In this document: piece by piece, positions 1 to 60,241 of the stretch
Position numbering within the stretch: position 1 is the stretch's first letter
Layout of the letters: the number at the start of each line of letters is the position of its first letter
Assembly (NCBI GenBank): GCA_965645245.1
Contig: OZ287078.1
Location: 1,550,001 to 1,614,000 of the forward strand
From: Massalongia carnosa
Lineage: Eukaryota
Reading direction: 5' to 3'
Length of the DNA stretch: 64,000 nt
Made by a program: the position numbers and the translations under genes
Notes under the pieces: generated by a model
Told to the model about the DNA's origin: nothing
Database searches by the model: none
Seen by the model: only the letters and a program-made list of their open reading frames with translations

Positions 1-527
1 AGACCTATGTTTTGAGGTGAGTGATATCACACCCCCTCCCCTTCTCTATTCATGAATGGTTGGTTCATTGGTTAGTCAGTTCTTTTTCATCTTCTTTCCT
101 CGCATCACACAGTTATGTCAGGTCGAGAGATGCGTAATAAACAAGCTAAAATGTCTATATCTATATTTTATCCGCAAAAGTGTATGAACGGCTTCCAGAG
201 CCCCATTTGCATGCTTGAATCGAATTCCACAGTTGGCAATACAAGAATTTCATTGAACAGGATGATAAGACATGATCAATAAAGAAAACAAGACTAAAAA
301 TAAAAACCTCCTCAGTTGTAAACTATCGGCAATGTAGGGCGTACATAAGCGAGCATTGTTGATCTTTACTGTAATCATCTTCTCCCTACAAAGGACAACT
401 GCTTATCGAAAAAGTGCGGAGTAGACTAGTAAAGACTCTTCACGTCGTATTCATATCTCGGGCCGATCGTCAGTATCTTCAAAAGCTTCCTTGAGCAACT
501 TTCAGTACCGTACCGTAACCCCGCTGC

Positions 528-1767
528 TTATCCCAAATACTCATCCAAGTACAAATTCCCGGTCCAGTTCTCACAATAATTGGTAGGACAAAATTCATCT
601 GCAGGTACATCGAACTGAGGCGTTTGGGCAACCCGCAAACTCGGTATGTGACGAGAGGAGCCATTTGGATCGGACCGTTCTATCTCGTTGGTTGCTGGTC
701 GGAGGTTGGCTGCACTGTTGTAAATGGTGAACTCTGATGGTCGAACCATCCATCCTGAAGATTGAACGTTTGGGATGGTAAAATCATAAGTGTGACTTGT
801 GATATTTGGTGTTTCAAATTCATGAAAATCCTCAGGCTGGTTGCTTTGACATGTTGTAACAGGCTGGCTCTGAAAGAAGGGGCCTTGGTAAATTGGCTCT
901 GGTCCAGGGGCAGAATGGGGGCCAACCATCGGGACACTTTCGGCTAGGGGTGGTGTGCTATTTTCTTGCGGAAGGATTGATATGTCCGTCGACGAGTCGG
1001 CTCCAGGCGAAGAGTGATGCTCTAATTGCTCACCAAGGCGCCGAGCGTGAGAGTGTCGATTTTGATTCCTCTTGTTCCGCCGAACAGCAATGCGGGGCGG
1101 TTTGTTCCTACCTCCATTTTCCCCTTGCGCAGGATTAATCAGACTAGGAATCAAGCCGCGAGTGTTGTTCAATTGTATATGCTCATCCTTCAGGAGGGAG
1201 CAACCCTCCTTCCTTTTAATATAATCAGAGTTCCGTTCGGGCTGCTTCCAGGCGAGCATAAAAAATTTTTTGCGGCCGCGCCAAGCCTCCGAAGTCAGCG
1301 CGCTTGTAGTAGGTGGTTGCATCATCCTCATTGTGATGTCGTCCCATCGGATTCGTCCATCAAGTCTTCGATAGTACTCCAGTACCAGCCAGCTCTCCTG
1401 GGAGCTAATCTATGACAAAATCAGCTGGGACAATCGATAAATCAAAGGAACGTTACCCGGTCTGGTAAGCACTGAAAGTCTAAGAGTGGTCTTGGCTCTT
1501 CACCGGGAGAAGGAGATAGCTCGACCATTACGCGGCCGTTTGAATCGCGCTTCGGAGGTGGTAGATCCAATCTCGCGTTTTTTCTCCATTCGTCGGTAGG
1601 CTGGAGCTGATACATAATCTATCAATTTTATCAGCATTATCTTTAGAGGAAGCAACACAAGGATGCCCTACATCTGGCATGTCTGAAATATCAAATTCTT
1701 GCCGTGGCACATCATTTTCCATGATTAATTGAGTCGATGAGCTTGAAATTATGAGATCGTGTGCCAT
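528..1767 (-). CDS. Hypothetical fungal protein, ~379 aa, 3 exons (1767-1672, 1618-1457, 1409-528)
   Basis: Two GT-AG introns (1671-1619, 53 nt; 1456-1410, 47 nt) with GCTGAT branch-like motifs join the ORF pieces into one open frame: MAHDL...DMPD|IMYQLQP...LLDFQCLPDR|ISSQESWLVLEYYRRLDGRIRWDDITMRM...; low-complexity C-terminus. No named domain recognised. Confidence 0.7.
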
Positions 1768-4700
1768 GGAAGATTTCCGCTTGAGGATGAGATGATAGGT
1801 AGGAGGTTATGCTCGCTCGGGCCGTCAACAGTAAGCTCGAAATCCCAGGGTGTGATAAAATACGATGAAGGAATCACTCTACCAATTTGGCTCACTGGAT
1901 CAACAGTGATGTTTTATACCATACACCACCCTTCCGCAATCCATATTGCAATAATTGTGATCAGGTCGTTCCATAATGTGCATTAAAGGGGTCCCTACAA
2001 ATTAAAAAAGTTCATCACTTGTACACGCATCAGTAGCGTCTTAACAACGGAAAATTATATGGAAACATTTTCGAATCACAAAGTGTTTGAATAGACGAAT
2101 CATATCAACGCAGGTTAGAACGACAGGGATATGCTGAGACAACTGTACTTCTTCCGTGAGGTAATGGTAAGGAGAAGCTATGCCTGGCTGAATTGAGCGA
2201 TTTTTTATTGAAAAGGATCTGATTTCGCTGCTGAATTATGAAGACCATAGCGTGTTACAAGTATCTGCGAATGTGATCGTACGACGCTATTTCAGGACGC
2301 GACAAATTTCTGAAAGGGCTCCTCCTTATACCTAAGCGCACGCAGCACGTGCATGCTAGAGATGTGACGACGCATGGGCAAAACTCAGCGGTAACCCGAG
2401 AAACACGATGAGGAACGAGGGGATGATGGGGAACAGATGAAGGCTTGTGGTGATGACCAAAGTCGATACAATATCCCTACCAATCACAGTGCATAATAAC
2501 CCCTCGCCAGAGTTGGAAGATGTTTTTCCTTTGTAGATACATCCATTCTCCTAGACTAAACCCTATCCTCTCACGACTACATGATCTTGCGAGTAATTCT
2601 CGTGCAATCATGCCATTTCACTTTCGGAAAGACGAAGGGCTTCCCTTAGTGCTTATCAATTCAATAGCTTTTCCCAGAGATTAAAATGCGTTGAGATTTC
2701 GAGCTTGTTGTGATATCATCCATATTTCTCGTTTTTACGCAATACCATTGTTTATTTGCCATATTTTTCCCTCCATCTATTTTTGGTTGTCATCGCAATG
2801 ACCATTCAAATCTGGATAAAAATCATGAACACATTTGATTCTACTGTTGTTACGCAAATGCGAAAAACGACGTTGAGATGACAGGTCCGGCCTTGCATGG
2901 ATGATAGAAACTACTTTCGGAGAATTTGTCAGCGGGGTTGCTAGCATAAGGAGGAAATAGCTGCATACATGACCACAAGTTCCTAGCGGCCTCTACGACT
3001 CATTTTTTGCTAATTAATTGTGTAAGCTGATTTAGAGGAGAAATTGACTTCCATCCGCACTTTCGTCGCCTGAATTGTCTACACCACGGGCCGGATTGCG
3101 AATAGTTAGAGGTTAGCTTCATAATTGCGCTACGGCGTGCCAGTTCACAGGATCTCTGTATGCGTCATCAGCTACCAAATCAGCCACTTGTGACACTGGG
3201 CTCCAGGTCAGACTTGTTCTCGCATTCCTGGCTGGGCTTGGACACGCCTGAAATGGCAGCGTATGTGATGCGCACCGGAGGAGAGGGGAGATGGAAATTA
3301 AGGAGCGATTTCGAACATATTTCTAATCAGCACACCGTAGCGGTTTTTGCAACCACACGTCCACAGAGCATCATTATTGGAACGTTCAGAAATTATGGTT
3401 TACTGTGCCAGTTCAAACGTCGAAATCAAGTGCCGGAGGATGACCCTCTTTCACCCGCTTCACCTTTTCCATTTCCTCCTCATCCACCTTATATCAAGGG
3501 GCCGGGAGCCTCAGCTTCATATGCTGAGATGAATACAGGATGAAACCTATAGAATCACACATAACACTAAAGGCTTTTGTCAGGATGTGTAAAATGCCGA
3601 AGGTTCAAAGGACTTGATTGGTGGGATAATACGAAATCTTTCCTGCGTTTCACCCCTCCACTCTCTCCACTGAAAAGTCGCTTCGATATGTACACGCCAT
3701 TGGCTTCATCATGGCTCTGTTCTACATGATTTGTTCCTCCTTCCCCTCCTACGGCTCTCCCTGACAGCATCACTTCCCATGGGATGCATTGTCAAGTGCT
3801 GACTAAAGGGGACCATGCAGCGTGAAAAGGGGATATGGCATGATATCCAGGGGTGGCTGCTCCAAAGTCCCTACTAGTAGAATTTTGATCTCTTGTAGTA
3901 AGAGTAAATTGGCGGTGAAGGATAAAGTGACGAGCTACTTTGTACACGATCTGGCCAGTAACGTATAGACTAAAAAGACGACGTGGGGTCGGTATTGTGA
4001 TATTTGGCAATACGACCGCTCTTTAGTCTTCGGATTGCTACATCATGGTCCAAACCGACTTTTTGGCTCATGGTCACCCTTTGCTCGTAAGAGACTGTGA
4101 GTAATAAAGTTTCCACGAGGACGCACTCCGGGGAGCCATCAGGTACGCGGTCATGAAAACCCAGACCCTTCTATGTATTGGAATGCAATTCTCGCAATTC
4201 AACACACTCGAGGTGGCGATGAATTAGGGCTTGAATTTTACCAAGTCGGCTGCTCAAGCTCAAAGGAAACTTACCAGGCTCAAAGGGAGGAAGAGCGCTG
4301 TTGAGAAACGAAGAACTCGGTACCTCATCCGGAGAAATGGATTGCCAAGCACGACTTGTACATCCTCCTTCTGGACCCACTGCGCAGGGAAGATACCCAG
4401 CGTGCAGAACCCTTTCATCACCGGTGGAACATGACTGATCGTCAATCTATGAAGAATTTGCCCAACGGTTTCCGACTTTCCAAGCCCAAAAATCCGAGGC
4501 GAAAACGCAAACTCGAAAATGGAGCTATCGGGAATGGGGGACGGCCTCAGCGCGGGAGCTGGTGCCCACATGATTTACAATGCCGGGAATCTCGCCCGTC
4601 GAAGTGAGTATAACGTTTTACACTCCAAACTCAGAGCGCAAGGAATTTTGCGTTGAGAGAGAAGGGACATTCACAGTAAGTGGACAGTGTTGGTGAAGGC

Positions 4701-7700
4701 TTCTAAAACCATCCAATCTTCCTTCATCCCTTAGTTCTCCAGAAACCACCATCATCTGCTAGAACCCAGAGGGATAAGCGGTTCACGAAGTCAATCATGA
4801 TATACCGCAACTTTTCTTCAGCTATTCTAAAGTAAGGATGAGGAGTGTGCTGATACAAAACGATGATCCGATCGGGCTTGGAGTGAGAGCTAAGTCAATC
4901 TACGGGAGCATCTCCATACTAAACAGCGGCTATCATCGACTTAAACCCTGATTTCAATCTCAACTTGGATCTCGGCTCTCAAAGTGGCGCCTCCGCAGAA
5001 TTTTCATGGGGGAACGGATATCACCCTTCTGAACCTTCCCGCGAATCACTTCCTTTGCCAGTTCACCCACAAGAACACACACCTGCGATACGCCTTTCCT
5101 CCCGGACTCTCCAACGCACCGGGAACCCAGTCATGCAGGGGCTCTTAAACTATTACGGACAACAAGGCTAGTATATGGCGTCAATATAACCACAAATATC
5201 CAGCTGGCAGTTCATAGCGCTGAATGCTCGTTGCCTTGAGAGCCCTGGTCTGTGTATGTGTGAACAACGCACCTGTTTCTATTCCTCTGATATTGCAGCT
5301 GCTTTGGGCCCAGAGAACTTGTGGACGAACAAAGGCTGAACAGGATGATTATAAGAGTGGCGGGCAGAAGCCGATATGGAACGCCGGCCGTGGGAACCTA
5401 GGGTCGATGAAAGGAAATGGTTTACAGCTGTCAAGCTACCTTTGGCCGTGGATTTGGCGGGGCGAGATTTGAGTGAGGGCCACACAAAACAAGATCAGAG
5501 AGACTTGGTGTCGCAAGCTACATCAAAGAAGTCACATGGAGCCCTATCGTTGGTTTCTCTTGATTTCTTGCTCTTGATTAGAACCAGGGTCCTTCCTCCA
5601 TCCCCCCGTCCACTGCACGCTTTCTCATGTTCGCAGCACCAGCACCAAAACCTGGCACACAACTCCCCACAAAACTTGGCTTCAAACAGCAAGCGAGACA
5701 ACGAACAATTCCGCTCGTCTGAGCTACTGATGGACATCGCGCCATACCGCGCATCGTACTTCAGCAAGCGATCCCTCTATTAACCCATCGTTGATTTTGT
5801 TCTCGATCAACCCGTTTGGCCTTGACGCCTTGGACAATGAGATTGTTATCGAAGACCTGGAAGCTGGCTGTCAACTGCGAGTTCTTTGAAAAGCTGATTG
5901 TGCTCAGCTACAAACACCCCGAAATCTGGGCGGATGACAGGGATCTCATACACTTTCACAACACTGCCATCTGTCGTCGCGCGCACTCATACGTGTTCGA
6001 CAAAGACTTAATCGTTGAAAGACAGCAAGCAAGAGTCAAGAACTAGGTGATGAAGAAGTCCAGCGGCGTCTAAGAAGACATAGGCTTTTGACCGAGGATG
6101 GAGAAGTATTCCACCATGAGAGAAGGCAACAAAGGATCTGTCACGGGCAGGTGTGAACCACAACGTGGGAAGGTGACATGTTCCATAGAGTTCGTTTGAT
6201 AAGGCCTACTGGTTGGCATTGATGCTTAAGCTCTGCAAGCAAAGCTACAGCATCTAGTGGCAAGTTAGTCAACTGGCTCACTCAGAAAGTTAAAGGATAA
6301 GGGGCCAACCTCTGCTTTGACTTTTGCTTATTACTATCTATGCTTAGTCTATGGGCAGGAGCAAGTGATAGCATTGTACGAAATTGGGCCACCGAAGGGG
6401 AGAAGTAAGGTGAATGGTGTGATCAACTTTACCAGAAACTGAGACGAAGTTTTCTGTTGCTCCCAGACTGAGTACTGGCCACCGAAAGGGCAGGAGAATC
6501 TAAGATACATAGGTTAGCAGTATTGATAAATCTCCCACCAAACCACGGATCGTGCACCTCTCTCTCTCTCTCTCTCGTATGCTGCCCTCGCGTTACTTCT
6601 TATCGCGCAGCGACTTGGCCCGTTGCTGAACTCCCGAAGGGTGTACCCCTCTGGCAGTCTGCAAGATTTCGGCCACGTCGTTACGGGATTTATCCAAAGT
6701 CCGCAGTTTCGGTGCGCTCTTCTAGGCCTAACTTCAGACCACAATGGGAGCGGTTTCGTCGTGGTAGTACTCGAAAGGCCATGTCCTCAGCATGATAATA
6801 AGTCAGCGCTTTCCCTCTACGATCAACCCGCTCGCCCAGCAGTGATCCGATGATTTGGGGAGCGATCCTAGTTCCTTCTGTGAGGTTGAGGATGAATGCG
6901 AAAGGAAACCTCCGACACGCACCAATATTTGCCCTCCAGACGGGTGAATTCGTTGCGAAGAGATGTCCAGAATGGGGGACTGTGAGAACAATGAAACGGA
7001 GAAAGACGCCTGTCTTGTTACCATAGCTGTTTGCAGATGTAGAAGCCATACACAACCAAAGGTTGAAGGCATCGACTTGTTGCTGTCCCTCCCCGTTTTC
7101 AACCAAAGATAACATAACATGAAGCAGATAGCCAATAAATAGCCCGAGTGAGCTTGGACAGACATGTCGACCTATGGCTACCTAAGGATATAACGCTGTG
7201 GCTGCTATTTATATTCAATAAACAGCAGTCAGGAATCGGAAACCTGACCTTCAAAGTATATCCACTCCCTGTTCCATTCGTATTTATCGTAACGAGACCG
7301 CTTTTCTATTGCGCGTTAAGTACACCCAAATCTTCATGCACTCAGGAATCTTATAGACCCGATGAACTGGACCGTGTGTTCACAATTTCGAGATTGTAGC
7401 GTACGTTCCCTCTTCTTGCGGTATTGTAGATAGACGGGCCGCTGATTGAAAGAGCGAGCAAGGTGTCCTCATAGACGATTGTTTGCTGAAAGACTTCTTT
7501 CGGCCCGGAGGGTATGGGCATTCCGCAACGAATGGACTTTGTAGGTCCTCGCGTTGACGACTCATCACTTGAAACGTCGACCAACCGAATAACCATCGAA
7601 GTGGGCTTTCGCATTGGCGACGACCAGTTATTGACCACCTCCACGAAGAGTTTGGTATGTAGATAGCTTGCACCACGTAGAGATTTCCAATCCAGCAGAC

Positions 7701-17679: not shown

Positions 17680-18284
17680 TTAGACGCGTGGGAACAATGA
17701 CGTAATTGGAATAAGGTGGAAATAGGGGAAAATAGAAGGAATAGAGACTCCTACGGGGGAAGAACACGTGGAGAAAGTGTAGGGATGTTGAATATCCAAC
17801 TCCTATCAGTACAACATCTAGGAAACCGTAGAAGCCGCATTACATAGGCCTAAGTTAGTCCCAAGCTAAGATAAAGATCACCTCACTTAACAGAAGGTGA
17901 CCAGTAATAGGATAAAGACTGCTGAACAGCACTCTTCATCCTTAACATCACGGTTATACATACACTTATTATTACATAGTCATATAGCCATAGTCATATA
18001 CCTATTTCAACAAGGGAATAGAGACGCAAGGAAGGGAGGAAGATGAATGAACGAGAGGAACTACTCCTTACGAGAAAGAAGACTAGGCAAGTCCGAGAAA
18101 CCCCCCCCTTTCCTATAAAGGAAGAAGGATGAACGGAACGAAAAGAAAGAGATAGGGGGCGGTGGATGAATGAATAGATGATTTAGTGAGTACATAAAGA
18201 TGAAATGAAGCTTTATAAAAAACCCGGAATCAATAAGCCACACAGACGGCATTCCAAGATCAAACTTCCTGCGCGCATACAACA
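17680..18284. mobile_element. Probable gypsy-type LTR (left end undefined), interrupted by a solo LTR
   Basis: Purine-rich tract with internal repeat GGAATAGAGAC (about 17738 and 18015) and a TATAAAG; ends ...CATACAACA at 18284, followed by CTTGAG. No second copy in the window. Confidence 0.4.
17786..18012. mobile_element. Solo LTR (227 bp) with 5-bp TSD AGGGA
   Basis: TGTTGAA...TTCAACA inverted termini; AGGGA at 17781-17785 and 18013-18017. Confidence 0.9.
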
Positions 18285-18433
18285 CTTGAGTTGCTCCAAA
18301 GGGGATCTGGAGATCTAGGTATCTATTTCATATTCCATGTACAGAAATGGCAGCCTTTTAATCCGCTTCCGTTTCGCTGGTTCTTCGATTTCCCGAAGAT
18401 TCTTGATTAGAACGGACGGATGCGATCCCAATT

Positions 18434-18954
18434 ATGTCTGATGTACCACCCCCCGCCGCCAGTCGCCGTCGGCCACCCCGAGCGTACGATGTCCATTTGC
18501 CCGACTTTCCTCCCCCTGCTGCAGCGGTGCGGGTGCCTCCCAAATGGGTCGGCCCCACCTCGGAGGCTTCTCTCTGCCATCGGTGTTCCCAACACAATCC
18601 TGAACTTAATTTCAACTGCACCACCGATAACCAGCCTCGGGGAAGTGCGCTGATTGCATTCGTCGAAAGGAGGTTTGTCGCCCGATCCCAGTTCCTTTTC
18701 GGCGGACGGTCCTTCGGTTTCTGTAAGAGGCAACCGCCATCAACAACCTGCCGACCCCAAATCGGGCCCGGTTCGCTGCTCTCGCTGCCAAGCATGAGCG
18801 ATATGTCGCCCATGTGGCCATTTGGGAGCGCGCCCGTGCCAAGGCCTTGAAAACCGACAGCGTGGAGGGACTAGATGCCCTTGCGCAGATCCGACGCCCT
18901 ACTTCGGTGGGAAAAGGGGCTTCCCGTGACCGTCGTGACCGTCCCGGAGGGTGA
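18434..18954 (+). pseudogene. Decayed antisense accessory ORF of the gypsy element with a Zn2Cys6-like motif
   Basis: CHRC-x10-C-x9-CADC-x6-C is reconstructed across a 1-nt frameshift at about 18640; internal TAA at 18724. It lies downstream of the pol/chromodomain on the opposite strand. Confidence 0.55.
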
Positions 18955-19082
18955 GGATCAGGTGTCGGATCATGAGGGGTAGCTAGCTTTCTTTTTAGCA
19001 ATAATCAAAGCTGTTTACTTAACTGTGTCTTAGGTCGATAAGATAAGATTATATTTTTCGCATGCCCGGTATGGGAAAAGAT

Positions 19083-19377
19083 CTATTTGCTTATCTTTCT
19101 TCTCTTTTCCCCGCTTTTCGACGGGTTCGATGGGTATGTTCGATGATAAATCCTAATTAGGTCTTGTGACCCTTCCATGTCTTCCAATGACAGCCATTGA
19201 TTGTCCGAATCCGGATATCCTTTCCATTTGACCAGATATTGCAGTTTCCCGTATCGGATTCGACTGCTCAGTACCTCCTCCACCTCGTATTGCTCCTCGC
19301 CGTCGACCTCGATGGCCGGGGGGAGCTCAGGACCTCTTGCTGAGTCTTCATTGTATGGTTCTAGAAGGTTGACGTGA
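19083..19377 (-). mobile_element. Ty3/gypsy integrase C-terminus plus chromodomain fragment (chromovirus)
   Basis: HVNLLEPY...PPAIEVDGEEQYEVEEVLSSRIRYGKLQYLVKWKGYPDSDNQW. Confidence 0.9.
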
Positions 19378-22300
19378 TTGGCGCCACTATGCGCGAGAAT
19401 CCTTTGATGAAGCGTCTATAGAAGTTGGCGAATCCAAGAAAGACTTGAACTTCTCGATGAGATTTCGGCTCCGGCCATTGCGTCACCGTAAAAATTCGTC
19501 CTGGGTCCATGGCGATGCCTTTTCGGGAGAGTATGTAGCCCAGGAAGTCCAGCTCGTACGTGTGGAAGATGCATTTCGATAACTTTGCGTGTAGTTTCCA
19601 TTTTCGCAATTGATCCAGAACCCATCGAACGTGGCCCGAATGCTCCTCTTCCGTCTTGGAGAAGATGAGGATGTCGTCAAGATATACTACTACGAACTGG
19701 TCGAGATTCTCTTTCAACACCTCGTGAATGAACGCTTGAAAGGAGGCGGGGGCATTGACCAGTCCGAAGGGCATGACTCTATACTCAAAATGGCCATATC
19801 TACATCTGAAGGCCGTCTTCCATTCGTCCCCGGCGGCGATTCGGAGGGTGTTGTATGCGTCCCTCAAATCCAACTTGGTGTAGATAGCCGACCCGCTGAC
19901 GATGTCGAACAGCCCCTGGATCAGGGGTAGAAGGTACTTATTCTTAATCGTAGCAGCATTTAGGGCCCGATAATCGACACAGAGACGTAGACTACCATCT
20001 TTCTTCTTGGTGAATAGGATGGGCGCGCCTAGTCGTGAGGTGCTATGGGTAATATACCCTTTTGCCAGGTTGTCGTCGATGTAGTCTTTTAGGGTTTCTA
20101 GTTCGGTGAGGGAGAGGTTATACATGGCCCGGGTCGGGGGTGGTTCGCCTTCCAGATTGATTTTATGGTCGTGGGGCCCTCGTTCTGGTAGCACTGAAGC
20201 TTTTTCATTGGAGCAGACGTCACTGTAGGATTGATACAGAGGCAGAAGTTTATTGCTAGACGTAGAGATGGCACCAACTATTGACTCCGACTCCGGGCTC
20301 CCACCGAGCACTTCCAGAATGTCTATTAGGAATGCGTCGACGCCCTCGCATTCGCAGATGTCAAAGATCTCCTGCTCACTCACCATTGCCACTACTGGGA
20401 GATTGCTACTTCGATGAGGGGTTTCCTCATCGCCTACAGTGACCCCGGGACGTTCCCCTGGCAGGTCATCTCGTACTTCACCCTCGATGAGGTGGCTTTC
20501 ATGGATTATCCTCCTTTCGCGCCAGCCGATGGATGGATTGGCATGACCCAACCAGGGCAAGCCCAGGATCATGTCCACCCCATACATGTCTGACGCGACG
20601 AATGCCTGCTCGGCCACTCGCTCAAGACCATTGTCATCAACAACCCCGACGCGCAGGGCATGATCAAAATAAGTCTGGAAGGGGGTTCCATCGAGAGTTT
20701 TCAACCCAGATGGTGGAGGGGAGCCGGGAGGATCTCGAACACCTACCTCATTTAGCCAGGTTTGAGCGATAAGGTTCCAAGTTGCTCCGCAGTCGATCAT
20801 TGCTCGGACACGATGCTGACTGTTGTCGTAATATAGGAAAACCGTTGAGAAGAGGTGGCGGCATGGGGATTTCCTCATTTGCCGGGCCAATACGACGGAG
20901 GCAACGTCTATTGGCCCCGACCTTTTCCCGGCCGGCGGGACGATCCCCGCGGCGACGGCCGGGACCGACATTCGAATTGAAGGTGCCCCATTCCCGCAGT
21001 TCCAGCAATCCTTATCCGACCGATTTCCTTTTGGTCTCGTAGGGGGCGGGGCTTCTTGATCTGATGATGCTTTTTGCAGCAGAGTTTCGAGACGACGTCT
21101 CTTTTCGAGCGTTTCTATCGCCCTGTCTTTCGCTGCTGGCGTTTCCTTTTCGGTTTCCGTTATTTCCTCCTCCCACCTCGGTGCCTCTCCGAAAAGGGCC
21201 TCGAATGGGGACATTTTCAGTACGCTATGCCGACTGTTGTTGTAGGCGTATTCTGCCATCGGTAGCCAGTACACCTAGTCGTCTTGTTGATAATTGACGT
21301 AGCAACGAAGGTACTGTTCCAACGTCTGGTTTTGACGTTCCGTTTGCCCGTCGGTCTGGGGGTGAAAGGCCGTACTGTAATTGAGCCGTACCCTCAGATG
21401 ATAGCAGAAGTTGGACCAGAAATTCGAGGTGAACAGGCTTCCCCTGTCGGTCACCAGCGAGACCGGCATTCCAAAGCGGGTGAAGACTTCTTCTACCAGG
21501 GCGTCGGCAAGGTTCTCCGCCGTCCAGTCTTTCCTGGCCGCGATGTATCGGGCGTACTTTGTATACCTGTCAACAATTACTAGTATTGCATCAAAAATAA
21601 GGGTGCGGCGGATGCTCGGGGGCAAATCCGTAATGAAATCTAGTGTCCAATTCTGTCTTGGACCCAGAGGTACTGGCAAGGATTCTAATTCGCCGAATGG
21701 TCTATGCCTGACTGCCTTGACTTGATGACAGCGAGTACAGGTATCAACGTAGTGCTTGACATCAGGGACCATTCGGGGCCAGTAGTATTTTCGTTGGAGA
21801 AGTTCTGTCGTTCTGAGGGTACCGAAATGCCCTGCGTTTGGATCATCATGATTCCTTTTTAGCAGTTCGTTTCTCAGCAATCCAGGCGGTATATACCACC
21901 TGTTATTTCGACAGAGGATGTCATCTTTGAGATGCCAGAGCCCGTCTTCTTTCTCATCGGCAGGAAGGTCGTCCCCTGCGACCCCCTCCGTTCCCTCGGT
22001 GGGCTGCCTCTGACCGTCCCTTTCCTGATCCAGCTCTCCCTACAACGACGATGCGGCGAGGGGCCGTCTTCGCTTCGCAAGGTGATCAGTCTCTTGAAGA
22101 ATACGAAGGACGGTGCTGAGTTCCAGGGGGGGCGATGCAAAGGCAGCTTCCGACTCAGTCACGTCTAGGACGCGCTGGCTTAATGTGTCCGAGTCCCTCT
22201 CGGCCTCGACGAGTCGGAATCCCACAGGCTTGGAGTCAGCCGCGGTCTCGTCTGACTTCGGAGGGGCAGGCTTTTTGCCCTTTTTCTTCCCCCCCTTGGT

Positions 22301-23083
22301 CCTTCTCATTGCCGCCTGGATATCAGGATCCGACGCCCGTGCAGCATTCGGGGTGGTATCCATCCCTACGACAGCAATTGAGGATTCCGTGCGCGTCTCC
22401 GGTGGAGTATTGTTGAAGACGAAGGATTCCTTCGGCCCTTGACCGACTTCATCTGAAGAAACTAATGCGTAGGCTCTCGTTTGATATACCGCGCTTTCCC
22501 CCCCGACGACCCCCTGACCCAGCAGTGTGGCCTCGTCTTGACGATGCAAGCCTGGCCCTGCGTAGTCCGGGCGTCGCGAGGGTCCATCTGCCGGATTATT
22601 CCGACCAGGTCTGTACTCGAGCTGTAGGTCTAGACTGGATAGTCTTTCCCACCAACGCGCTTCGCGTCTAGATAGTGTTTTGGTTGTGAAAAAGGTGCGA
22701 AGGCTTCCATGATCGGTGAGCACTTTGACGGGGAAGTTTGCCCCTTCAAGATAGTGTCTCCAATTTTTGCACGCTTCCACGATTGCTAACATTTCCTTCT
22801 CCCCGACCCCATAATTGATTTCTGCAGGGGTCATTTTCCGGGACCAGAAGGCGATCGGGTGCCATTGGCCCGCTTCTTCGACTAGTTGACTGAGGATTCC
22901 TGATAGGGCGAAATCTGACGCATCCGTCTCGAGCTTAATACGCCTTGCAGGATCGAAATGCAGCAACATTGGGGCGCTAGTGAACGCGATTTTTAACGCC
23001 TCAAAAGCCCCCTTTGCCTTGTCCGTCCACACGAACTTCCCCCGGAAACGGCCTTTGTCCCCACCTTTCAGCAAGGAAGTGAT
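19374..23083 (-). mobile_element. Rearranged Ty3/gypsy gag-pol fragment in the order RNaseH - integrase (H2C2, rve) - gag CCHC knuckle - aspartic protease - RT
   Basis: RNaseH (ETDASDFA, EKEMLAIV, TDH, NNPADGPSRRPDY) 23083-22040; integrase (HDDPNAGHFG..CTRC, LDFITDLP, TDRGSLF, FHPQTDGQTER) 21880-~21055; knuckle CWNCG-/-MGHLQFEC at ~21010-20965; protease IDCGAT; RT (LRLCVDYR, PFGL, YLDD) down to 19374. In-frame TAG stops at 22040 and 21275. Confidence 0.92.
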
Positions 23084-23271
23084 GCAGATACCAACACGTC
23101 TGCAGCAACTGAGGGAGACAGCACCCAGCACTTAGTTGCAGGGGCAACACACCCAACAATAGCAACCCAAGTAGCCAATCTCGTAACAATCCGAATTGGA
23201 CACCGGTCAATAGGAAGGATTGACTAGCCGGCCCATATGACCATATCGCGGAAGGTTTTCCGTACAGACTG

Positions 23272-24831
23272 ATGGACAAACTCGAGGCTCTTCAGCAAGG
23301 ACCACTCATCCTCGCCGGCTGGAAGAAGCAACTAGAAACTCACCCCGATAACGTGTACAAGCAGGTTATTTTTGATATTATTCGGTATGGGGCCAAGATT
23401 GGGTATACCGGCCCAGAACAATTCATCCTCAGCCCCAATCTGCTATCAGCAAAAGAAGCTCCTGATATACTCACTAAAGATGTCGAGGAGCAGAGGGATA
23501 AGGGACGATTGACGCGAGTAGATATTCTTCCCTCCAAGTTCATATCATCCCCATTAGGTCTCGTACCCAAATCAAATGGTACATGGCGCCGTATCCATCA
23601 TTTATCTCATCCTGAAGGATCGTCGGTAAATGACTTCATCCCTCAGGAATGGGGAGCCTTGGAATACCCCACATTCGATGACGCTGTCGCCAAAATAAGA
23701 AAACAAGGAAAAGGGTGCATATTAGTAAAAAGGGATTTCTCCGATGCCTTTCGCCATATACCCGTGGCTAAAAGCGACTGGTGGTTGCTGGGATTTCAAT
23801 GGGATAATGTTTACTGGATGGAGCGCTTTCTACCTTTCGGCTTGCGCACGTCTCCTTTTCTATTCGATTTGTTTGCAAAGGGGATAAATTGGATGTGTTT
23901 ACAAAATCAACATGATGTGCTTCATTATCTAGATGATTTCTTGGCAGTTTGCCGCACTAATCCCGAAGCAGAAGCTTTCACTCGGTACTTCTTCGATCTT
24001 TGCAAAGACCTTGGAATCGCAGTCAACGAAAAGAAAAATAAAACTGGTCATATGATCGATTTCTTAGGCATTGAATTGGATACTATGCTCATGGAAGCAC
24101 GGCTACCACCAGACAAACTGCAGAAAGCCAAAGACCTCGTCAAACAGGCCTTGCAAAAAGCATCGATTAGAAGGGAGGAATTAGACTCCTTGATGGGATT
24201 TTTGTCATTCGCAGCTAAAGTGGTAGTGCCAGGGAGAGCTTTCCTCCGACGTCTTTTTAACGCAAAAGCCATGTCTCGTGGGCGTCATATTCATATTAAC
24301 GAGAATATCAAAGCCGACCTGCAGTGGTGGCATCTTTTTTTACCTAAATGGAATGGCATTCGCATGTTAGACCGTCCTCGCGAGACATTTCGTCTTTGGA
24401 CGGACGCATCAGGGTACGGCATTGGGGCCTACATCCTAGTGGAGGATCATACCAGTTTTACCATGCCCGCTGAGCATGCACTTTCTGAACGTTTCACGTC
24501 TCGGCTTAGGCCAACTCACATCATTGTCAAAGAAATGACAGCGATATTACACGCTTTGCGTAAATGGCTCCCCCTTTGTGCAGGGAGCCATGTGATTTTC
24601 CACTGTGACAACTTTGCTGTCACGTCAGGAATAAGGAAATCATCTATTCGTGGAAACGCTATGCGGCCTCTTCGGGCAATCGCAATGCTGACCGCTATTC
24701 ATGATATTCGGATTGAAATACGTTGGATCCCAACAAAGTCAAATGAGCTCGCTGACCTCCTATCGCGGGGCAAATTGGAGAAAATCGCTAACAAATGGCC
24801 CAATTTACAGGAACTTCTACTCAAATCCTAG
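23272..24831 (+). CDS. DIRS/Ngaro-type reverse transcriptase-RNase H, intact ORF
   Basis: SPLGLVPK..WRRIHHLS, DFSDAFRHIP, LPFGLRTSP, YLDDF, FLGIELD, WTDASG, KEMTAI, CDN, WIPTKSNELADLLSR. Confidence 0.92.
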   Translation: MDKLEALQQGPLILAGWKKQLETHPDNVYKQVIFDIIRYGAKIGYTGPEQFILSPNLLSAKEAPDILTKDVEEQRDKGRLTRVDILPSKFISSPLGLVPKSNGTWRRIHHLSHPEGSSVNDFIPQEWGALEYPTFDDAVAKIRKQGKGCILVKRDFSDAFRHIPVAKSDWWLLGFQWDNVYWMERFLPFGLRTSPFLFDLFAKGINWMCLQNQHDVLHYLDDFLAVCRTNPEAEAFTRYFFDLCKDLGIAVNEKKNKTGHMIDFLGIELDTMLMEARLPPDKLQKAKDLVKQALQKASIRREELDSLMGFLSFAAKVVVPGRAFLRRLFNAKAMSRGRHIHINENIKADLQWWHLFLPKWNGIRMLDRPRETFRLWTDASGYGIGAYILVEDHTSFTMPAEHALSERFTSRLRPTHIIVKEMTAILHALRKWLPLCAGSHVIFHCDNFAVTSGIRKSSIRGNAMRPLRAIAMLTAIHDIRIEIRWIPTKSNELADLLSRGKLEKIANKWPNLQELLLKS

Positions 24832-25825
24832 CATGCGACCCTCCCGAAAGCTGGTACAGCGAAATACCTCTATCCCGACCAGCAGCTAGATACCTGTGGT
24901 GGGGCTTGGCAGTCAAAACCCGCAGTCTGTATGACACAGGGAGAAGAAGCTATGTAACATACTGCAGAATATCAATGAACGCGACTCCATTTCCGGCAAC
25001 CATACAGACCTTGTCATCTTGGATAGCGATGCTAGGAGAACACAAAATACAGCCCAAACCATCAAGGCCTATCTAGCCGGAGTTCGGTCCAGCCAAATCG
25101 ACACGGGCTTTGAGGATCTAGAAACGTTTCACCATCCCATACTAAATAGAATCATTGCCGGCATAAAGCGAAAGAATGGCGAAGCCGACAAGAAAGAGCG
25201 AATGCCCATTACGAAAAACATACTCCTTCGTTTAGTGAAACGATTGGACTTAGCCGACAACACGCAGGCCACTCTACACGCAGCATACTGTCTAGCATTC
25301 GCAGGATTTCTTCGCGCAGGCGAATTTACGTACACTATCAGAGACCTAACAGACCCAAGCTTCGAATCATGGCATTTAACTAGGAAATCCGTCCACTTAG
25401 AAGCAGATAAGCTGTTCCTCTCCTTGCCGGCGTCCAAAACCGACCCCTTTCGTCGAGGCATTACGCTAACGATAGCCGCATCAGGGGACGAGGCCTGCGC
25501 GGTAAAATCCCTTCGTAATTTGATCACCCGGTTTCCACTACCTGCAACCTCCCCTTTATTCTATAAACAAAAGGCTTTCACTCGCGAATATTTGACCACC
25601 GCGATGCGATCAGGGCTTAAGAGCTTAGGCATAACAGGTAATTATTCAGGTCACTCTTTCCGAAGAGGTGCAGCGACGTCGGCCAAGGAAGCCGGTCTTA
25701 GCGAGAACGACATTCAATTACTAGGCCGGTGGAAGTCAGACTCCTACAAGCTTTATATCCAAACGCATCAATCCCACATCTTAGCCACCTCACACCGGTT
25801 TCAACACCCTCCCTCAGCCTCCTAA
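24795..25825 (+). pseudogene. Tyrosine recombinase of the YR element, with one frameshift
   Basis: ORFs 24795..25076 and 25019..25825 join at CAGCCCAAACC (about 25057; QPK|TIKAYL). Catalytic R (FLRAGEF), K (SKTD), HxxR (GHSFRRG), W (GRWKS) and Y (YKLYI) are present. Confidence 0.88.
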
Positions 25826-26006
25826 CAGCATCGCCGCGCGAGCCGTTTCCATCTTGGGCTTGGGAGTATCCACCGCGATCTGCACCAAGGCCCGAAAGGG
25901 GGCGCTAGGTAGAGGCGCCGGCGAGAGTGACGGCGCCAGCGAGGTGCAGATCGCTGTGTTTCCGCCAACCTTAGAAATAGAAGCAATACGAGGTCACATG
26001 AACTAG

Positions 26007-28254
26007 CAACATTATGCCGTCAACTGTTCATTTAATAGGTTATGAGCCCGGCTTACCTCTGCTAGGTCTAAAAAGCCTCCACATTAATTGTCAACCAACT
26101 TACCTCCATCCCTCCATCTACTCCATTTTATACTATATATATTCCCTACCTCCGTCCGCGCCAAAGTCAAAGCATCATTCCATTCCACAGGGTCACTGCC
26201 CTATTTCTCATTTCGTCTTCCTTGTAGCATCATGGCTAAAGGAGAGAGCTTATACACGTTCCCCAAACTGATGAGAAGCGGGAACTATAAGAAATGGTCC
26301 AGAGACATGGCCTTGCCCTGCAGGAAGCGGAACTTTGGAGTTATGTTACTGAGGCCCGGAAAATGCCTCGAGAGATTCCATTTCCATCAAAGAGTTCTGA
26401 TGATGACGAAGTCTCTCTGAAAGAAACACTGGATCAGCTCGATAAGCGGGATCAACGGGACCTTGAACGACCGGAGTTCGAGGAAAAGCAAAGAAGAGTA
26501 GTAGAAAAGATAGGCAAGATGTGCACAGACGACGTGCAGCAAGAATTCTTGTCGATGAGGGACCTAGCCACCGGTGAGATCTTGAATCCCAAGGACCTTT
26601 GAAAGCATTTGAAGACCCGTTATACCTTGAAGAATTGGAGTGCTAAATGAAGCACCTTCAACCGGCTAGAGAAGATCAATTATGAAAAGTGCAAGACCAT
26701 TGAGGAGTACGATAGCCTGGTCAGAAATATCAAGACTAAGATCACCGACATTTCGCTCTCTGTCGAGCAAATAGTGGTGCTCAAGCTTCTCAACGGACTC
26801 GGTAGTTCATTCAGCACCTACCTGACCATCCTGAACGAACAGGCTCGGCGGGAGGATAAATTCCCTACGCTAGATGGACTACTAAAGAACCTAGAGGACG
26901 AAGAAGCTCGCATGCGCCAGGACCCTATTGCCATAGCTAACATGCTGAAGGCAAAGAAGAATAAGAACCCCACCGAAGAGGGTAAGAGCAAATTTAAATA
27001 TTGTGATTATAACCATTCCAGGAAATGCAGGCATAGCAACGCCACATGTAGAAAATGTGATAAGACCGGCCACCTGAAACGCGTTTGCGAAGACAAAGAA
27101 GGTAATGAAACCTCGAAACCCCAAATAGTTTGTACAATAAGGGAATGTTCCGGGAAAAGAACCCAGGAAACACCGCTTATTTGTATGGCAAATCTATACC
27201 GAGGCCCCAAGAATGCCCACGATCTATTGATCGACTCCGGTGCCACCGCGCACATTATATACAATAAAGATCTCTTTCAAGAAGGGACCTTTCGGAACGA
27301 AAACAGCTGTTTAGAAACTGGTTCCGGAGAGATGTTATCGACAGAGGGAAAAGGCTCTCTGCTCGTATCACTGAACAATGGAAATAGAGTTGTAACGGAC
27401 CTCATTTTGACCAACGTCCTTTTCGCCCCCGACCTAAAATTCAACCTCATTAGCACAATACAATTCGGCAAAAAGGGCATATCAACGTACCTGATGGCGG
27501 ATGACAAGCCCGCTCAACTGGTGCATAAAGGAAAGGTGGTTGGACTGGCCAAAACAATCAATAATCAATATGTTTTGCAGACAACCACTATCAGTCCTAC
27601 CGAAGCACGGGCCCTCACCACCACAAACGGTGTAAAGGCCCCTATCCAAACATGGCACGAACGACTCGGCCATCTCAGCTACCCAAACCTCCTAAAATTA
27701 AATCATTTAGCCAATCGAGTCACCACCGAAGGACCCATACCAGAAGAAGTATGCGGCTCATGCATGATGGGAAGACAACAGCGGAAAATAAATCGCACTC
27801 CACGAACCCGAGCAACAGACTTTCTTGGAATAGTGCATAGCGATCTAGGGGGACCATTTCCACTGACAATGTTCGGTGAGCGTTTTTATGCTACGATGAA
27901 AGACGACTTCTCCGGGGTAGTGTGGATTTATCTGCTGAAAAAAAAGGGTCAAACCTTCGAATGTTTCAAGCAGTTCAAGAAATGGATAGAAAATCAATAG
28001 GGAAAATAGAGTCAGAGGAAGCTAGATTCGTTCCGCAAGGGGAGCGAATCGAACACAGCTGGATGAATCACTTCGCAAGGGGAGTGATAAAAATTGAATA
28101 GCTTCAATTTTGGAGGCGAAAGGGGAGCCACGCTCGAAGGGGAGTGTTGGAATACTCGCTTGGCCCCATTAGTTCTAGCTTAGCCCTGTAGGCCGCTATA
28201 AGCAGTCACCTCCGTAGTAATTTCAATATTATGCCGTCAACTGTTCATTTAACA
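26007..28254 (+). mobile_element. Ty1/copia LTR retrotransposon, internally deleted (no RT/RNaseH), 5' LTR truncated
   Basis: 5' LTR remnant 26007-26037 matches the end of the 3' LTR (28145-28254, TGTTG..TAACA); PBS GGTTATGAGCCC 26038-26049; decayed gag (NYKKWSRDM, CRKCDKTGHLKRVC), protease IDSGATAH, GAG-pre-integrase WHERLGH..CGSC, rve start VHSDLGGP..DDFS, truncated at 28000; PPT AAGGGGAG. Confidence 0.92.
28145..28254 (+). repeat. 3' LTR of the copia element (110 bp)
   Basis: TG...CA termini, preceded by the PPT; the last 31 nt are repeated at 26007-26037 with two C/T differences. Confidence 0.85.
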
Positions 28255-57321: not shown

Positions 57322-57990
57322 AACACCATGCAGCCAATTCGTTGGAGCACTTCTTTAAGGTGCACGTTGCACTGCTCCTATCAGCCACATCTGGTGTATA
57401 CTCAATCTTCACTAATTGCATGATTTCATCATACTCAAACTACCTGTATAGATATCTTGACTATCAAAATTCTTTGCTACAGCAATTCGCCATGTATTTG
57501 CCGTGGGATTGTGTGAAAGGTCTTACTTCCCTATAATTATCTACTTGAACGAAAAGCACTAAAGTAATAACTGGCTGTTGTGTTGTTTGCTAACGCCATC
57601 TAGATTCCCACCTACCACGCCCAAAAAGTAGCTTGTTTTGCTAATGAATCAAGTAGCCACCACTCCATATGATACACTTGCTGGCAACCCTTCTTATCGT
57701 CATTACATATAATAGGGGTTTTCACGGTTGAGTTTTTTTGGCCAGGTTTTCAGGTTTTCAGGGTTTCAGGTTTTTTATGTAAGCACATTAAACCTATTTA
57801 GGTATAAATTCTCAGCCCTACTTTTCGAAAATTAAAAACCTGAAAACCTGAAATTCCGGTCTCATGAGTCCGGAATTTCAAGTTTTAATTTTCGAAAAGT
57901 AGGGCTGAGTCACGTTATTTAGGTTATCTTAGCTGGTTTATTTTAACTCAATTATTATCATCTCATCTTGATCATTCCTAATCATTAAAC

Positions 57991-58219
57991 ATGACGTCCA
58001 TCACTCTTCCAACTCGATCTCGAGGTCCCAATATCCGTTGGAAAGATGAAGACACTCAACTAGTCATTCAATGGCTTTGTATCAGAGACGATCAGGGTAT
58101 TTCCGTCAATCTCAATCTCTATCAAAAAGGAAACAAGGTAGAAGCTTGTAGAAGAATGCTGTTGGAGTCTGGACTGAGTGCTCAACGACCCGATGTATCC
58201 AAGGAAAAAGCCAGAGATT
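57991..58219 (+). pseudogene. 5' fragment of the transposon's second ORF (Myb/SANT-like DNA-binding protein)
   Basis: NIRWKDEDTQLVIQWL Myb-like first helix; convergent two-ORF layout typical of Harbinger-group elements. Confidence 0.6.
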
Positions 58220-59148
58220 GCATGTTCTATGTCTATACGAATTCGCGACAGTCTTTTGTTGAATCGACGAATATCCGGATCTCCAGTATGCGGTGCCTTG
58301 TATGGAGTCACCAGATACGTGGAATTCGTATAGGCACTGTCACCCAATAGATATTGACCGGGAGAGAAATAAAAGGCGGGATTCCGGCACAAATCACCTG
58401 CGGCGAATATACGCTGATCATGCTGAGAATTTGGCCATCCACTGAGAAAGTAAATAAACCTTTTATTCGAGTCACATACGGCACACAAATCCATCGCGTA
58501 TCTCTTTTTTCTGTTGAAGAATAGCTCGCCTTCGTATTTACCACCTGGTTTTGTATGTAGAACGTCGGTACCATCCACCTTGCCAACGACCCCGATAAAT
58601 CCATCTTGTCTCTGATTATTGGTCAAACTTCCTCTTATCCTAGCTCTTGCACTGGGCCATTGAACGAAGTCATTCTTTAGCCGACACAGTGCTTCTATCG
58701 CCCGTTTGGTGCAGTTAAAAACATGCCCTTCTGATATCCCCCACATGGTAGCTGTAGGAAGGAATCCACTGGCACTACCGTCATGTCCCATTCTAAAAAG
58801 AGCGTATTTTAGCTGATGTTCCACGGAGGCTTGAGGGACACGAGATTTATTAAAAAAGACGGGATCATTTCGAATTAAGCCGAGAACATGATCAAAGGAA
58901 AAGCGATTCATGCGTAGCAGACTTCGGAATCGATCATCCGAAAGGTTGGGAAGGACAGCCGACGCCCAATTGGATTTGGGAACGAATAATCGGGGAGTTA
59001 AATAACGCTGTTCTTGAATTCCTTCTGCTAGAAGTAGGAAATTCAATGCTTCATCCGATTCATCCGATGATGATGCAGTAGCATCATGTAGAAAGTAAAG
59101 ACAACGCAAATCTCTTTCCAGCTGCACTTTGCAGCTGACACGAGGCAT
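58219..59148 (-). pseudogene. DDE_Tnp_4 (HARBI1-like) transposase, C-terminally truncated
   Basis: FRSLLRMNRFSF, KVDGT, FFNRKKRY, GWPNSQHD, YLLGDSAY, FNKRLSRIRIDIEHA, then the frame runs into the opposite ORF. Confidence 0.85.
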
Positions 59149-60241
59149 AACTATTTAAAATGACAAAGAATGTCCTCTCGATCGAAGATGAGAAGTTAGA
59201 AAATAGGTTGGTAACATCTGATTGAATGACTAAGCATTAGAATTAATGCCTAAACGCCAAACCCTGATAACCTGAAAAATAAAACCCTGAAAACCTGAAA
59301 TTTGAAAATCAACCGTGAAAAACCCTAATAATCCCTTAAGTGTAACTGATATGTTTAGGTAGAAGCTAGAGAAGCTGAGTTCGTCGAGTGATAGCGACTG
59401 TCAAAATGTCCAACGACATTAGCAAACCAAATCCTTAATATTTTGCTCCTTTAATAATCGGCTGTCATCCGTCAGTATGAGGTTACAGAAGCCAGATTTC
59501 TGTGGATCTTATACCATGCCTTTTTTCTCTTTTTTTTACTGTTTGGCTTGAGGAATCATCATGAAAAGATAGGTGTTCGGTATTGATTTGTGATTTCTTA
59601 TCAAAATCCTTTTGTTTGTTTGTGCAAGAGATATAAGAAGCCAAGACACCAATCCTTAGAAGTGTTCCGAGAAGATAAAGATCTCTAAAATGGACATGTA
59701 CGGAAGTGTCGAACGCCCATAGGGCCGAGGCCAGCTTTGAGCCTCTCTCAATCATATACGGTCTTCTCTTCTACGCTCGATGAGTTTTGTTAAGAGTGTC
59801 TGCCACACTTGTCGTCGTTCTGCCTCTGTGTGTTTATAAGTCAACATATATCTATTCACCAAGAATTACGCAGTCGATATTGTTTTTATCGACTTCATTA
59901 CTTCTCGAATGTGGAGAGTACTATTAACCCAACGGTTGAAGTATATCATTTTCGATGTGCTCGAATGGCTATATCTACTTGGTCCCAGATCTCTTTTCCG
60001 TCTTCCTTTGTTCCATATCAACAGCCATAAATACATTGAACCTCGAATATTTTTTTTTTGATAAACTGTTTTAAGCTATCTAGGATATTTAATCTGAATC
60101 TTCGCTCATTATTTTAATCTCTTGTGGAACCTATCTCATCATCCCTCTTTCATCGAAGCTACCTTAAGACATAAGCTATATCGTCCAGAATTATTATCAC
60201 CGTTTTTCCTTTTGGAAGATGTTATTCAATCTTAGCAAGCC

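What the first reader, a model, noticed from the sequence alone, without database searches (positions are those of the whole stretch)
19374..23083. Circularly permuted gypsy pol: a 3705-bp unit opened at a duplicated GTGAT, in one reading frame, abutting a tyrosine-recombinase element
Seen: the domain order on the minus strand is RNaseH-INT-gag knuckle-PR-RT instead of gag-PR-RT-RH-INT. The RT end (...GCG CCA ATC AC, RIVAPIT, 19374-19378) and the RH-side start (ATC ACT TCC TTG, ITSLLKG, 23079-23083) rejoin with no apparent loss or gain, and the 5-mer GTGAT sits as a direct repeat at both ends. The repeats are 3705 bp apart (1235 codons), and all segments share one frame, broken only by two TAG codons (22040, 21275). 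A second seam (about 21055, KASSDQ|EAPPP) fuses mid-integrase to the gag end. The left flank is a gypsy integrase C-terminus sharing TCAC (probably from the same element); the right flank is the gag of a YR retrotransposon. Inference: this looks like an LTR-less internal circle reintegrated Campbell-style through a 5-bp core, possibly by the neighbouring tyrosine recombinase or by microhomology repair. Ordinary autointegration would leave LTR ends at the seams, and none are present.
Basis: partly seen in the sequence, partly recalled or inferred. Interest (0 to 1): 0.8.

Follow-up and report, generated by a model that had tools for sequence, protein, structure and literature searches.

The report
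One retrotransposon scattered over three chromosomes
The scrambled retrotransposon is real but dead: it looks like three of five pieces of one broken retrotransposon DNA molecule that were patched into chromosome breaks at three separate places in a fungal genome, not the product of a site-specific recombinase.

Summary
The permutation is real in the assembly. Against 15 other copies of this chromodomain Ty3/gypsy family (98-99.6% identical), the window holds three pieces of one element in the order B-A-C instead of A-B-x-C, with 205 bp (x) missing. The YR parent lacks GTGAT (1 shared base), so there is no common core. The repeat needs no duplication: it is one clean break plus 4 bp of microhomology. 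The single frame is an accident of a private 2-bp deletion; the parental unit is 3707 bp.

New here: two orphan fragments on contigs C20 (element 394-1358) and C18 (6279-6823) fill the remaining gaps. The five pieces cover 95.7% of a one-LTR molecule without overlap (random placement P about 3-5e-4, post hoc) and point to one sub-lineage. The outer ends lie 6 bp past the primer-binding site and 23 bp short of the LTR end.

Best reading: one reverse-transcription product (or 1-LTR circle) was cut up and end-joined into three chromosomal breaks. Against it: no junction was seen in the four runs laid; they carry the empty allele at the left junction. A one-off, functionless fossil of a known repair process, with an unusual multi-chromosome footprint.

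The parts
18014..18432 (.). Single-copy left flank (target site); 18426-18432 is a 7-bp microhomology with the end of piece C (junction J4)
   Evidence: Only the self match in the own genome for 18015-18425. Contigs of X2, X3, X5 match to 18432 with 0 differences and run on 1275 nt into other sequence; X4's has 29 letters that do not fit
18426..19377 (-). Piece C: integrase C-terminus, chromodomain and 3' UTR (element 5310-6272); stops about 200 bp before the 3' LTR
   Evidence: 3 private substitutions, a 9-bp duplication and a 20-bp deletion
19374..19377 (-). Junction J3 (A to C): 4-bp microhomology TCAC
19374..21062 (-). Piece A: gag end with zinc knuckle, protease, RT (element 1390-3080)
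   Evidence: 4 private substitutions
20990..20992 (-). Private 2-bp deletion in the gag knuckle; the reason why gag and pol read in one frame here
   Evidence: differs from 14 of 14 copies; family allele in contigs of 4 of 4 runs
21055..21062 (-). Junction J2 (B to A): 8-bp microhomology AGATCAAG, present at both parental sites
   Evidence: chance of 8 bp or more about 1.4e-4
21055..23083 (-). Piece B: RT connection, RNase H, integrase zinc finger and core (element 3076-5104), with private stop codons at 22040-22042 and 21275-21277
   Evidence: 6 private substitutions
23083..23083 (-). Junction J1 (YR to B): 1 shared base only
   Evidence: 4 of 4 YR copies compared
23083..26007 (+). Ngaro-like tyrosine-recombinase retroelement, cut in gag (positions 1373-4299 of a 4800-bp full copy); bystander host of the break
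   Evidence: no scored fragment ending near 1372 elsewhere

Best explanation
One DNA copy of this gypsy family that held a single LTR was cut into at least five pieces. It was most simply the reverse-transcription product that runs from the primer-binding site to the end of the 3' LTR; a 1-LTR circle has the same content. Host end joining used the pieces as filler at three chromosomal breaks in one cell lineage. At this locus (contig C12) three pieces were joined by microhomology in the order B-A-C between a unique flank and the gag of a YR element, with loss of target DNA. The gag piece went into a Mutator-like element on C20 and the 3'UTR-LTR piece into another Mutator-like element on C18. 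The 'circular permutation' is two neighbouring fragments of one clean cut that swapped places. Shown: piece boundaries, microhomologies, tiling, shared variants, the C18 empty site. Inferred: that the five pieces are one molecule, the nature of that molecule, the repair pathway and the single time point. The product has no LTR, no start and two stops, and is taken to be functionless.
For: Tiling: C20 394-1358 | 31 | A 1390-3080 | 0 | B 3076-5104 | 205 | C 5310-6272 | 6 | C18 6279-6823; 6188 of 6469 bp of a one-LTR molecule; random placement of the two orphan lengths avoids overlap with P=2.7e-4 (circle) or 4.6e-4 (linear). Lineage: A, B and C match copies L033 and L031 at 12 of 12 informative sites (2 of 15 copies do); the orphans share 2 of 19 single-copy variants of L033 against 0 of 198 of the other 14 copies; the C18 LTR shares a 2-base variant with the 5' LTR of L033. 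Ends: a 9-nt self-priming-type PBS lies at element 380-388, 6 bp before the C20 piece starts; the C18 piece ends 23 bp before the LTR end; a cut that close to this border by chance on a circle has P about 0.05. Repair marks: the C18 piece replaces 7 bp of its host with 2 shared bases at one end and no target duplication (3 of 3 empty copies shown); C20 has 2 shared bases at its 5' end; C12 has 1, 8, 4 and 7. Precedent in yeast: Ty1 cDNA fragments and 2-4-piece complex inserts are captured at breaks by NHEJ (PMC11372161, passages and section 10).
Against: No read or contig across J1-J4 was seen; the 4 runs laid (3 samples, 2 studies) carry the empty allele at J4. The tiling test is post hoc and the orphan list may be incomplete: 40 of 567, 40 of 41, 40 of 88 and 40 of 254 candidates were scored, and gag 800-1390 was covered alone. 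A third partial copy (L034, element 1-4861) overlaps the pieces and was set aside because its haplotype differs and 0 of its 22 single-copy variants are shared. A, B and C share none of the L033 single-copy variants (17 of 19 are not shared overall), and the U3 part of the C18 LTR is not of L033 type, so the molecule must be a recombinant or come from an unsampled sister. Timing is unresolved: the pieces carry 17 private substitutions in 6193 bp, yet the single-copy flanks show 0 differences from the empty-allele contigs in 2032 bp (P 0.08 for the nearest 448 bp, 1e-5 for all, at equal rates) and the C18 host has about 3 in 2704 (P=0.10). That would fit an aged chromosomal donor better than a fresh cDNA, but no solo LTR with the C18 haplotype was found among 14 examined. 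All three C12 pieces keep one orientation, which random ligation gives 1 time in 4.
Confidence: 0.55

Rival explanations
1. Sub-genomic circle, the reader's topology without the recombinase: the A+B fragment (3707 bp) closed on itself through the 8-bp microhomology, was later opened once at the RT/RNase H border and was end-joined into the break together with piece C.
For: B-A is exactly an opened circle; J2 has the longest microhomology; the A/B break lost 0 bp while the other breaks lost 6-205 bp; same orientation is obligatory for A and B. It meets the operational signature of eccDNA-mediated translocation, adjacent segments in reversed order (PMC9694575, passages).
Against: Needs two steps where one suffices; piece C and the two orphans still need fragmentation and capture; the reciprocal deletion junction has 0 matches in the own genome at up to 1 mismatch.
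Confidence: 0.15
2. Scrambled reverse transcription: RT copied C, jumped forward to the end of A (4-bp match), copied A, jumped back to the still intact looped-out RNA of B (8-bp match) and stopped where RNase H had already destroyed the template, which is exactly the A/B border. The scrambled cDNA was then captured at the break.
For: Explains the loss-free A/B abutment, the common orientation and the absence of overlap, since each RNA base is copied once; microhomology at both internal seams. Inference from established retroviral template switching.
Against: The C20 gag piece would need separate priming or a cut exactly at a third jump; the chromosomal seam J4 has 7 bp of microhomology too, so microhomology does not single out RT.
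Confidence: 0.15
3. Local rearrangement of an element that once sat at this locus (breaks, or replication template switches), with the C18 and C20 fragments unrelated.
For: A, B and C share no L033 single-copy variant with the orphans; the tiling test is post hoc.
Against: No LTR, target duplication or other family sequence in the window or the 10 kb to its left; the empty allele has unique DNA, not gypsy, beyond J4; tiling P 3-5e-4.
Confidence: 0.08
4. Assembly or library artefact.
For: No junction support; four runs whose flanks are identical to the assembly carry the empty allele at single-copy depth (134 against 143.5 in X2).
Against: The pieces carry 13 private substitutions and 3 private indels found in none of the other copies; collapsed repeats join at long homology, not at 1-8 bp; matching pieces lie on two other contigs, one in a clean empty site. 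Contig sets drop rare variants and 5081 pieces were not shown.
Confidence: 0.05
5. Campbell-type integration of an LTR-less circle by the neighbouring tyrosine recombinase through a GTGAT core.
For: Physical adjacency to a YR element; the family has near-identical copies, so the enzyme may have been present.
Against: No shared core in the YR parent; target not conserved; break is inside gag, not at the YR terminal repeats; no common motif; the two sister pieces sit in Mutator-like elements with no YR sequence in the 10-kb loci.
Confidence: 0.02

Closest known systems
Capture of Ty1 cDNA fragments and multi-piece inserts at double-strand breaks in Saccharomyces cerevisiae (PMC11372161; seen: passages and section 10)
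   Same: Retrotransposon pieces without LTR ends or target duplication, joined with short microhomology; inserts of 2-4 pieces; replication intermediates proposed as source.
   Different: There the inserts are read at one induced break by amplicon sequencing, so the fate of the rest of a molecule is not seen; here pieces are 0.5-2 kb, natural, inherited, and appear to tile one molecule over three chromosomes.
eccDNA-mediated translocation: wine-yeast Zygosaccharomyces segment and cattle colour-sidedness (seen only as cited and operationally defined in PMC9694575, passages; the originals were not read)
   Same: Two adjacent donor segments in reversed order at a new site.
   Different: Here a third piece of the same donor is joined on, target DNA is lost, the donor is a retrotransposon, and sister pieces lie elsewhere. 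PMC9694575 found no such event in 306 Magnaporthe genomes, with repeats masked.
1-LTR circles and autointegration products of LTR retrotransposons (PMC9694575, passages)
   Same: The five pieces together hold one LTR plus the internal region.
   Different: No seam involves an LTR end, so integrase did not make them; a linear minus-strand product fits the outer ends better than a circle.
Chromothripsis-like complex NUMTs ('mito-chromothripsis', as worded in PMC11372161, passage)
   Same: An extrachromosomal molecule is shattered and its pieces are rejoined out of order at nuclear breaks.
   Different: The donor is a 6.5-kb retroelement molecule, and its pieces can be counted almost completely.
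Tf1/sushi-type chromoviruses (label recalled; features tested below)
   Same: Parent family: PR-RT-RH-INT-chromodomain, TG...CA LTRs, 5-bp target duplications, self-priming-type PBS.
   Different: The window holds only broken pieces of such an element.

Membership tests
Chromodomain Ty3/gypsy retrotransposon (parent family) | pol order PR-RT-RNase H-integrase with C-terminal chromodomain | tested here: met
   Pfam on the pol ORF of full copy L023
Chromodomain Ty3/gypsy retrotransposon (parent family) | Two LTRs (TG...CA) and 4-6-bp target duplication | tested here: met
   377-bp LTRs; exact 5-bp duplication in 11 of 13 copies with both ends in view. Not met by the window fragment itself, which has neither.
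Chromodomain Ty3/gypsy retrotransposon (parent family) | Self-priming PBS complementary to a stretch inside the LTR (Tf1 type; feature recalled) | tested here: met
   9 nt after the 5' LTR are complementary to LTR 299-307; priming itself not tested
Campbell-type / tyrosine-recombinase integration | Common core in both partners, left as a direct repeat at both ends | tested here: not met
   YR parent shares 1 base (4 of 4 copies); the other end is explained by microhomology with piece C
Campbell-type / tyrosine-recombinase integration | Conservative event: target flanks were contiguous | tested here: not met
   1372 bp of YR and at least 1275 bp of flank missing; left neighbour is another piece of the same gypsy
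Campbell-type / tyrosine-recombinase integration | Recurring recognition motif at the seams | tested here: not met
   Best shared 4- or 5-mer at 8 break zones no better than random, P 0.37-0.9
Integrase autointegration product | An LTR end at a seam | tested here: not met
   Seams at element 1390, 3076-3080, 5104, 5310, 6272; LTRs are 1-377 and 6470-6846
eccDNA-mediated translocation | Adjacent donor segments in reversed order | tested here: met
   B before A, abutting without loss
eccDNA-mediated translocation | Donor scar (reciprocal deletion) or the circle itself | tested here: inconclusive
   0 matches for the reciprocal junction; a scar may be lost or never have existed; circles not testable here
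Filler-DNA capture of retrotransposon DNA at double-strand breaks | No target duplication, small or large target deletion, 0-8 bp microhomology | tested here: met
   C18: 7-bp deletion, 2 shared bases; C20: 2 shared bases, host truncated; C12: 1, 8, 4, 7 bp
Filler-DNA capture of retrotransposon DNA at double-strand breaks | Dependence on end-joining genes and on reverse transcription | not testable with these tools
   Needs genetics; source (cDNA or aged chromosomal copy) unresolved

The most novel reading that the evidence does not exclude
A single retrotransposon reverse-transcription product was shattered and 96% of it survives as five non-overlapping pieces at three simultaneous breaks on three chromosomes: a natural, heritable 'retro-chromothripsis'.
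Probability: 0.55. Interest if true: 0.62.

Novelty: new variant of a known kind. Interest (0 to 1): 0.47.

Why it matters
Truncated retrotransposon fragments are usually read as decayed insertions, one per locus. Here five fragments on three contigs appear to be one molecule, so one cell had several breaks open at once and repaired them with the same broken retrotransposon DNA. Induced-break assays cannot show this, because they read one site. It gives a cheap test for any long-read genome (do orphan fragments tile an element?) and a caution: reversed segment order with a short 'direct repeat' is not proof of a circle or a recombinase. The locus itself has no likely function.

Tried and rejected
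Reciprocal deletion junction in the own genome: 0 matches. Missing 5' part of the YR element ending near 1372: none among 40 of 75 candidates scored. Solo LTR with the haplotype of the C18 piece: none among 14 solo LTRs compared; L083 shares the 2-base variant but differs at three adjacent U3 sites; 40 of 54 LTR candidates were scored. A CCAAT-like motif seemed to recur at breaks; not significant. Gypsy sequence resuming beyond the C20 piece: none in 24 kb downstream. Empty allele from JGI metagenomes: 0 matches for a flank pattern; the synteny attempt with the flanking mannosyltransferase gave 1 contig of 2245 bp, uninformative, so deletion versus translocation at C12 and C20 stays open. Family depth in the runs does not tell whether the window's copy is present. 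An apparent sharing of three variants with L032 was an alignment artefact (absent); two 'private' LTR bases of the C18 piece proved shared. Earlier scan notes: nothing found. Literature: 8 searches listed no paper whose title or abstract start describes one retrotransposon molecule split over several loci; only listings were seen except for PMC11372161 and PMC9694575; the Dna2 insertion paper (PMC6346745) is not held, most subscription papers are not searched, and no supplements were read, so absence from print is not established.
Full report
Observation. The minus strand from 23131 to 19361 translates in one frame with two stops, and Pfam finds RNase H, then integrase zinc finger and core, then protease and RT. 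The own genome (52 Mb, 25 contigs; window on C12) holds 15 other copies of the family at 98-99.6% identity. Full copies are about 6846 bp with 377-bp LTRs, 5-bp target duplications in 11 of 13 copies with both ends in view, and a pol of order PR-RT-RH-INT-chromodomain. In coordinates of one natural full copy, the window holds B (3076-5104), then A (1390-3080), then C (5310-6272); 205 bp between B and C and both LTRs are absent.

The seams. J2 (B to A) has an 8-bp microhomology present at both parental sites, J3 (A to C) has 4 bp. At J1 the YR parent shares one base only, in 4 of 4 copies. So GTGAT is not a core common to insert and target. With the shared bases given to C and to the YR, A ends and B starts at one clean cut and nothing is duplicated. 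At J4, contigs of X2, X3 and X5 match the flank without difference up to 18432, 7 bp into piece C, and then run 1275 nt into sequence that is not in the window; X4's contig has 29 such letters. That is the empty allele, and it gives J4 a 7-bp microhomology. The YR element has lost its first 1372 bp and no scored fragment supplies them. The break zones share no motif. Site-specific recombination is therefore out; end joining with microhomology fits.

The frame. In full copies gag and pol lie in different frames and the A+B unit is 3707 bp. J2 joins the pol frame of B to the gag frame of A, and a 2-bp deletion near 20991, absent from 14 of 14 copies, then shifts into the pol frame and breaks the knuckle. 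The 1235 codons are an accident. With two private stops, no LTR and no gag start, no protein is expected.

One donor. At 12 informative sites A, B and C give one haplotype, that of 2 of 15 copies (L031, L033), so the halves do not come from diverged copies. They carry 13 private substitutions in 4683 bp and 3 private indels.

Sister pieces. Searches with the rest of the element found three partial members besides full copies and solo LTRs. One (L034, 1-4861) overlaps the window pieces, has another haplotype and shares 0 of 22 single-copy variants; I set it aside. The other two fill the gaps: C20:510871-511835 is element 394-1358, ending 31 bp before A; C18:186120-186664 is 6279-6823, starting 6 bp after C. 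The five pieces cover 6188 of the 6469 bp of a one-LTR molecule with no overlap beyond microhomology; random placement of the two orphan lengths does so with P=2.7e-4 on a circle or 4.6e-4 on a line. Each orphan shares one variant found in L033 alone: 2 of 19 for L033 against 0 of 198 for the other 14 copies; the C18 LTR also shares a 2-base variant with the 5' LTR of L033. The C18 piece lies in a Mutator-like element and replaces 7 bp, with 2 shared bases at one end and no duplication; the C20 piece follows a truncated element of another Mutator family with 2 shared bases. Neither 10-kb locus holds YR sequence. Limits: the test is post hoc, only 40 candidates were scored per search, and A, B and C share none of L033's own variants.

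What the molecule was. A 9-nt stretch after the 5' LTR is complementary to LTR 299-307, as in self-priming elements (recalled). The C20 piece begins 6 bp past it and the C18 piece ends 23 bp before the LTR end. These are close to the two natural ends of a minus-strand product before the second strand transfer (established retroelement biology). On a 1-LTR circle a cut so near this border has P about 0.05. This favours a linear cDNA. Against it, the pieces' 17 private substitutions in 6193 bp would have to have arisen in place, while the single-copy flanks show 0 differences in 2032 bp from empty-allele contigs (P 0.08 to 1e-5 at equal rates) and the C18 host has about 3 in 2704 (P=0.10). An aged chromosomal copy that was looped out would explain that, but no matching solo LTR was found among 14. 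The source stays open.

Mechanism and rivals. Most likely (0.55) one such molecule was cut into five or more pieces and used as filler at three breaks; at C12 two neighbours swapped places. A sub-genomic A+B circle opened once (0.15) and RT jumps limited by RNase H (0.15) give the same local order and are not excluded. A purely local event (0.08), an artefact (0.05) and YR integration (0.02) fit worse.

Read support. None was obtained. The 4 runs laid are contig sets from at most 3 samples and 2 studies; they show the parental joins and the empty allele at single-copy depth, and no listed piece bridges J1-J4 (5081 pieces and 338 loose ends not shown; contigs drop rare variants). The insert is thus either private to the assembled strain or wrong in the assembly. 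The private variants, the short seams and the matching pieces on other contigs argue for the first.

Known relatives and novelty. Capture of Ty1 cDNA and of 2-4-piece inserts at breaks is shown in yeast (PMC11372161; passages and section 10). Reversed adjacent segments are the accepted mark of eccDNA-mediated translocation (PMC9694575; passages). The process is known. What I did not find in 8 searches of the held library (listings only) is a natural case where nearly all of one retroelement molecule is recovered from three chromosomes. Verdict: real in the assembly, unverified by reads, a new variant of a known kind, without function; interest 0.47.

Noticed in passing
G000:C12:1957097-1962016 (L034, L062): A family copy truncated at element 4861 is joined to an inverted LTR start (1-65), followed by a 99-bp tandem array that reads like ankyrin repeats (label from the period and a glance at the sequence, not tested).
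   Followed up: partly
L083 (C16:107669-108046) and L034: A solo LTR on C16 and the truncated copy on C12 share the same 8 bases left of the LTR.
   Followed up: no
L030 (C11:2109529-2116278): Family copy whose 5' LTR has a 32-bp duplication and a deletion, plus an internal deletion that starts a few bases after the window's B end.
   Followed up: no
window 23083-26007; L037-L040, L047-L058: The YR family has split direct repeats (A-body-B-A-B, 4800 bp in L038); most copies, like the window's, end after the first B repeat.
   Followed up: partly
window 26007-28252: Internally deleted copia element (gag, protease, pre-integrase) with LTR-like ends, starting right at the end of the YR element.
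   Followed up: no
window 57710-59330: DNA transposon with 26-bp terminal inverted repeats, internal sub-terminal repeats and a DDE_Tnp_4 ORF at 58060-59154.
   Followed up: no
window 17785-18013: About 230-bp high-copy repeat, probably a solo LTR of another family, also inserted in gypsy copy L033.
   Followed up: no
G000:C18:176031-176405 (L072): A solo LTR of the gypsy family with a target duplication lies 10 kb from the C18 orphan piece, same strand; it lacks the piece's 2-base variant.
   Followed up: partly
window 23083; L046; L060: All three recipient sites break another transposable element (YR gag, two Mutator-like families); may reflect repeat-rich neighbourhoods or tolerance of damage there.
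   Followed up: no
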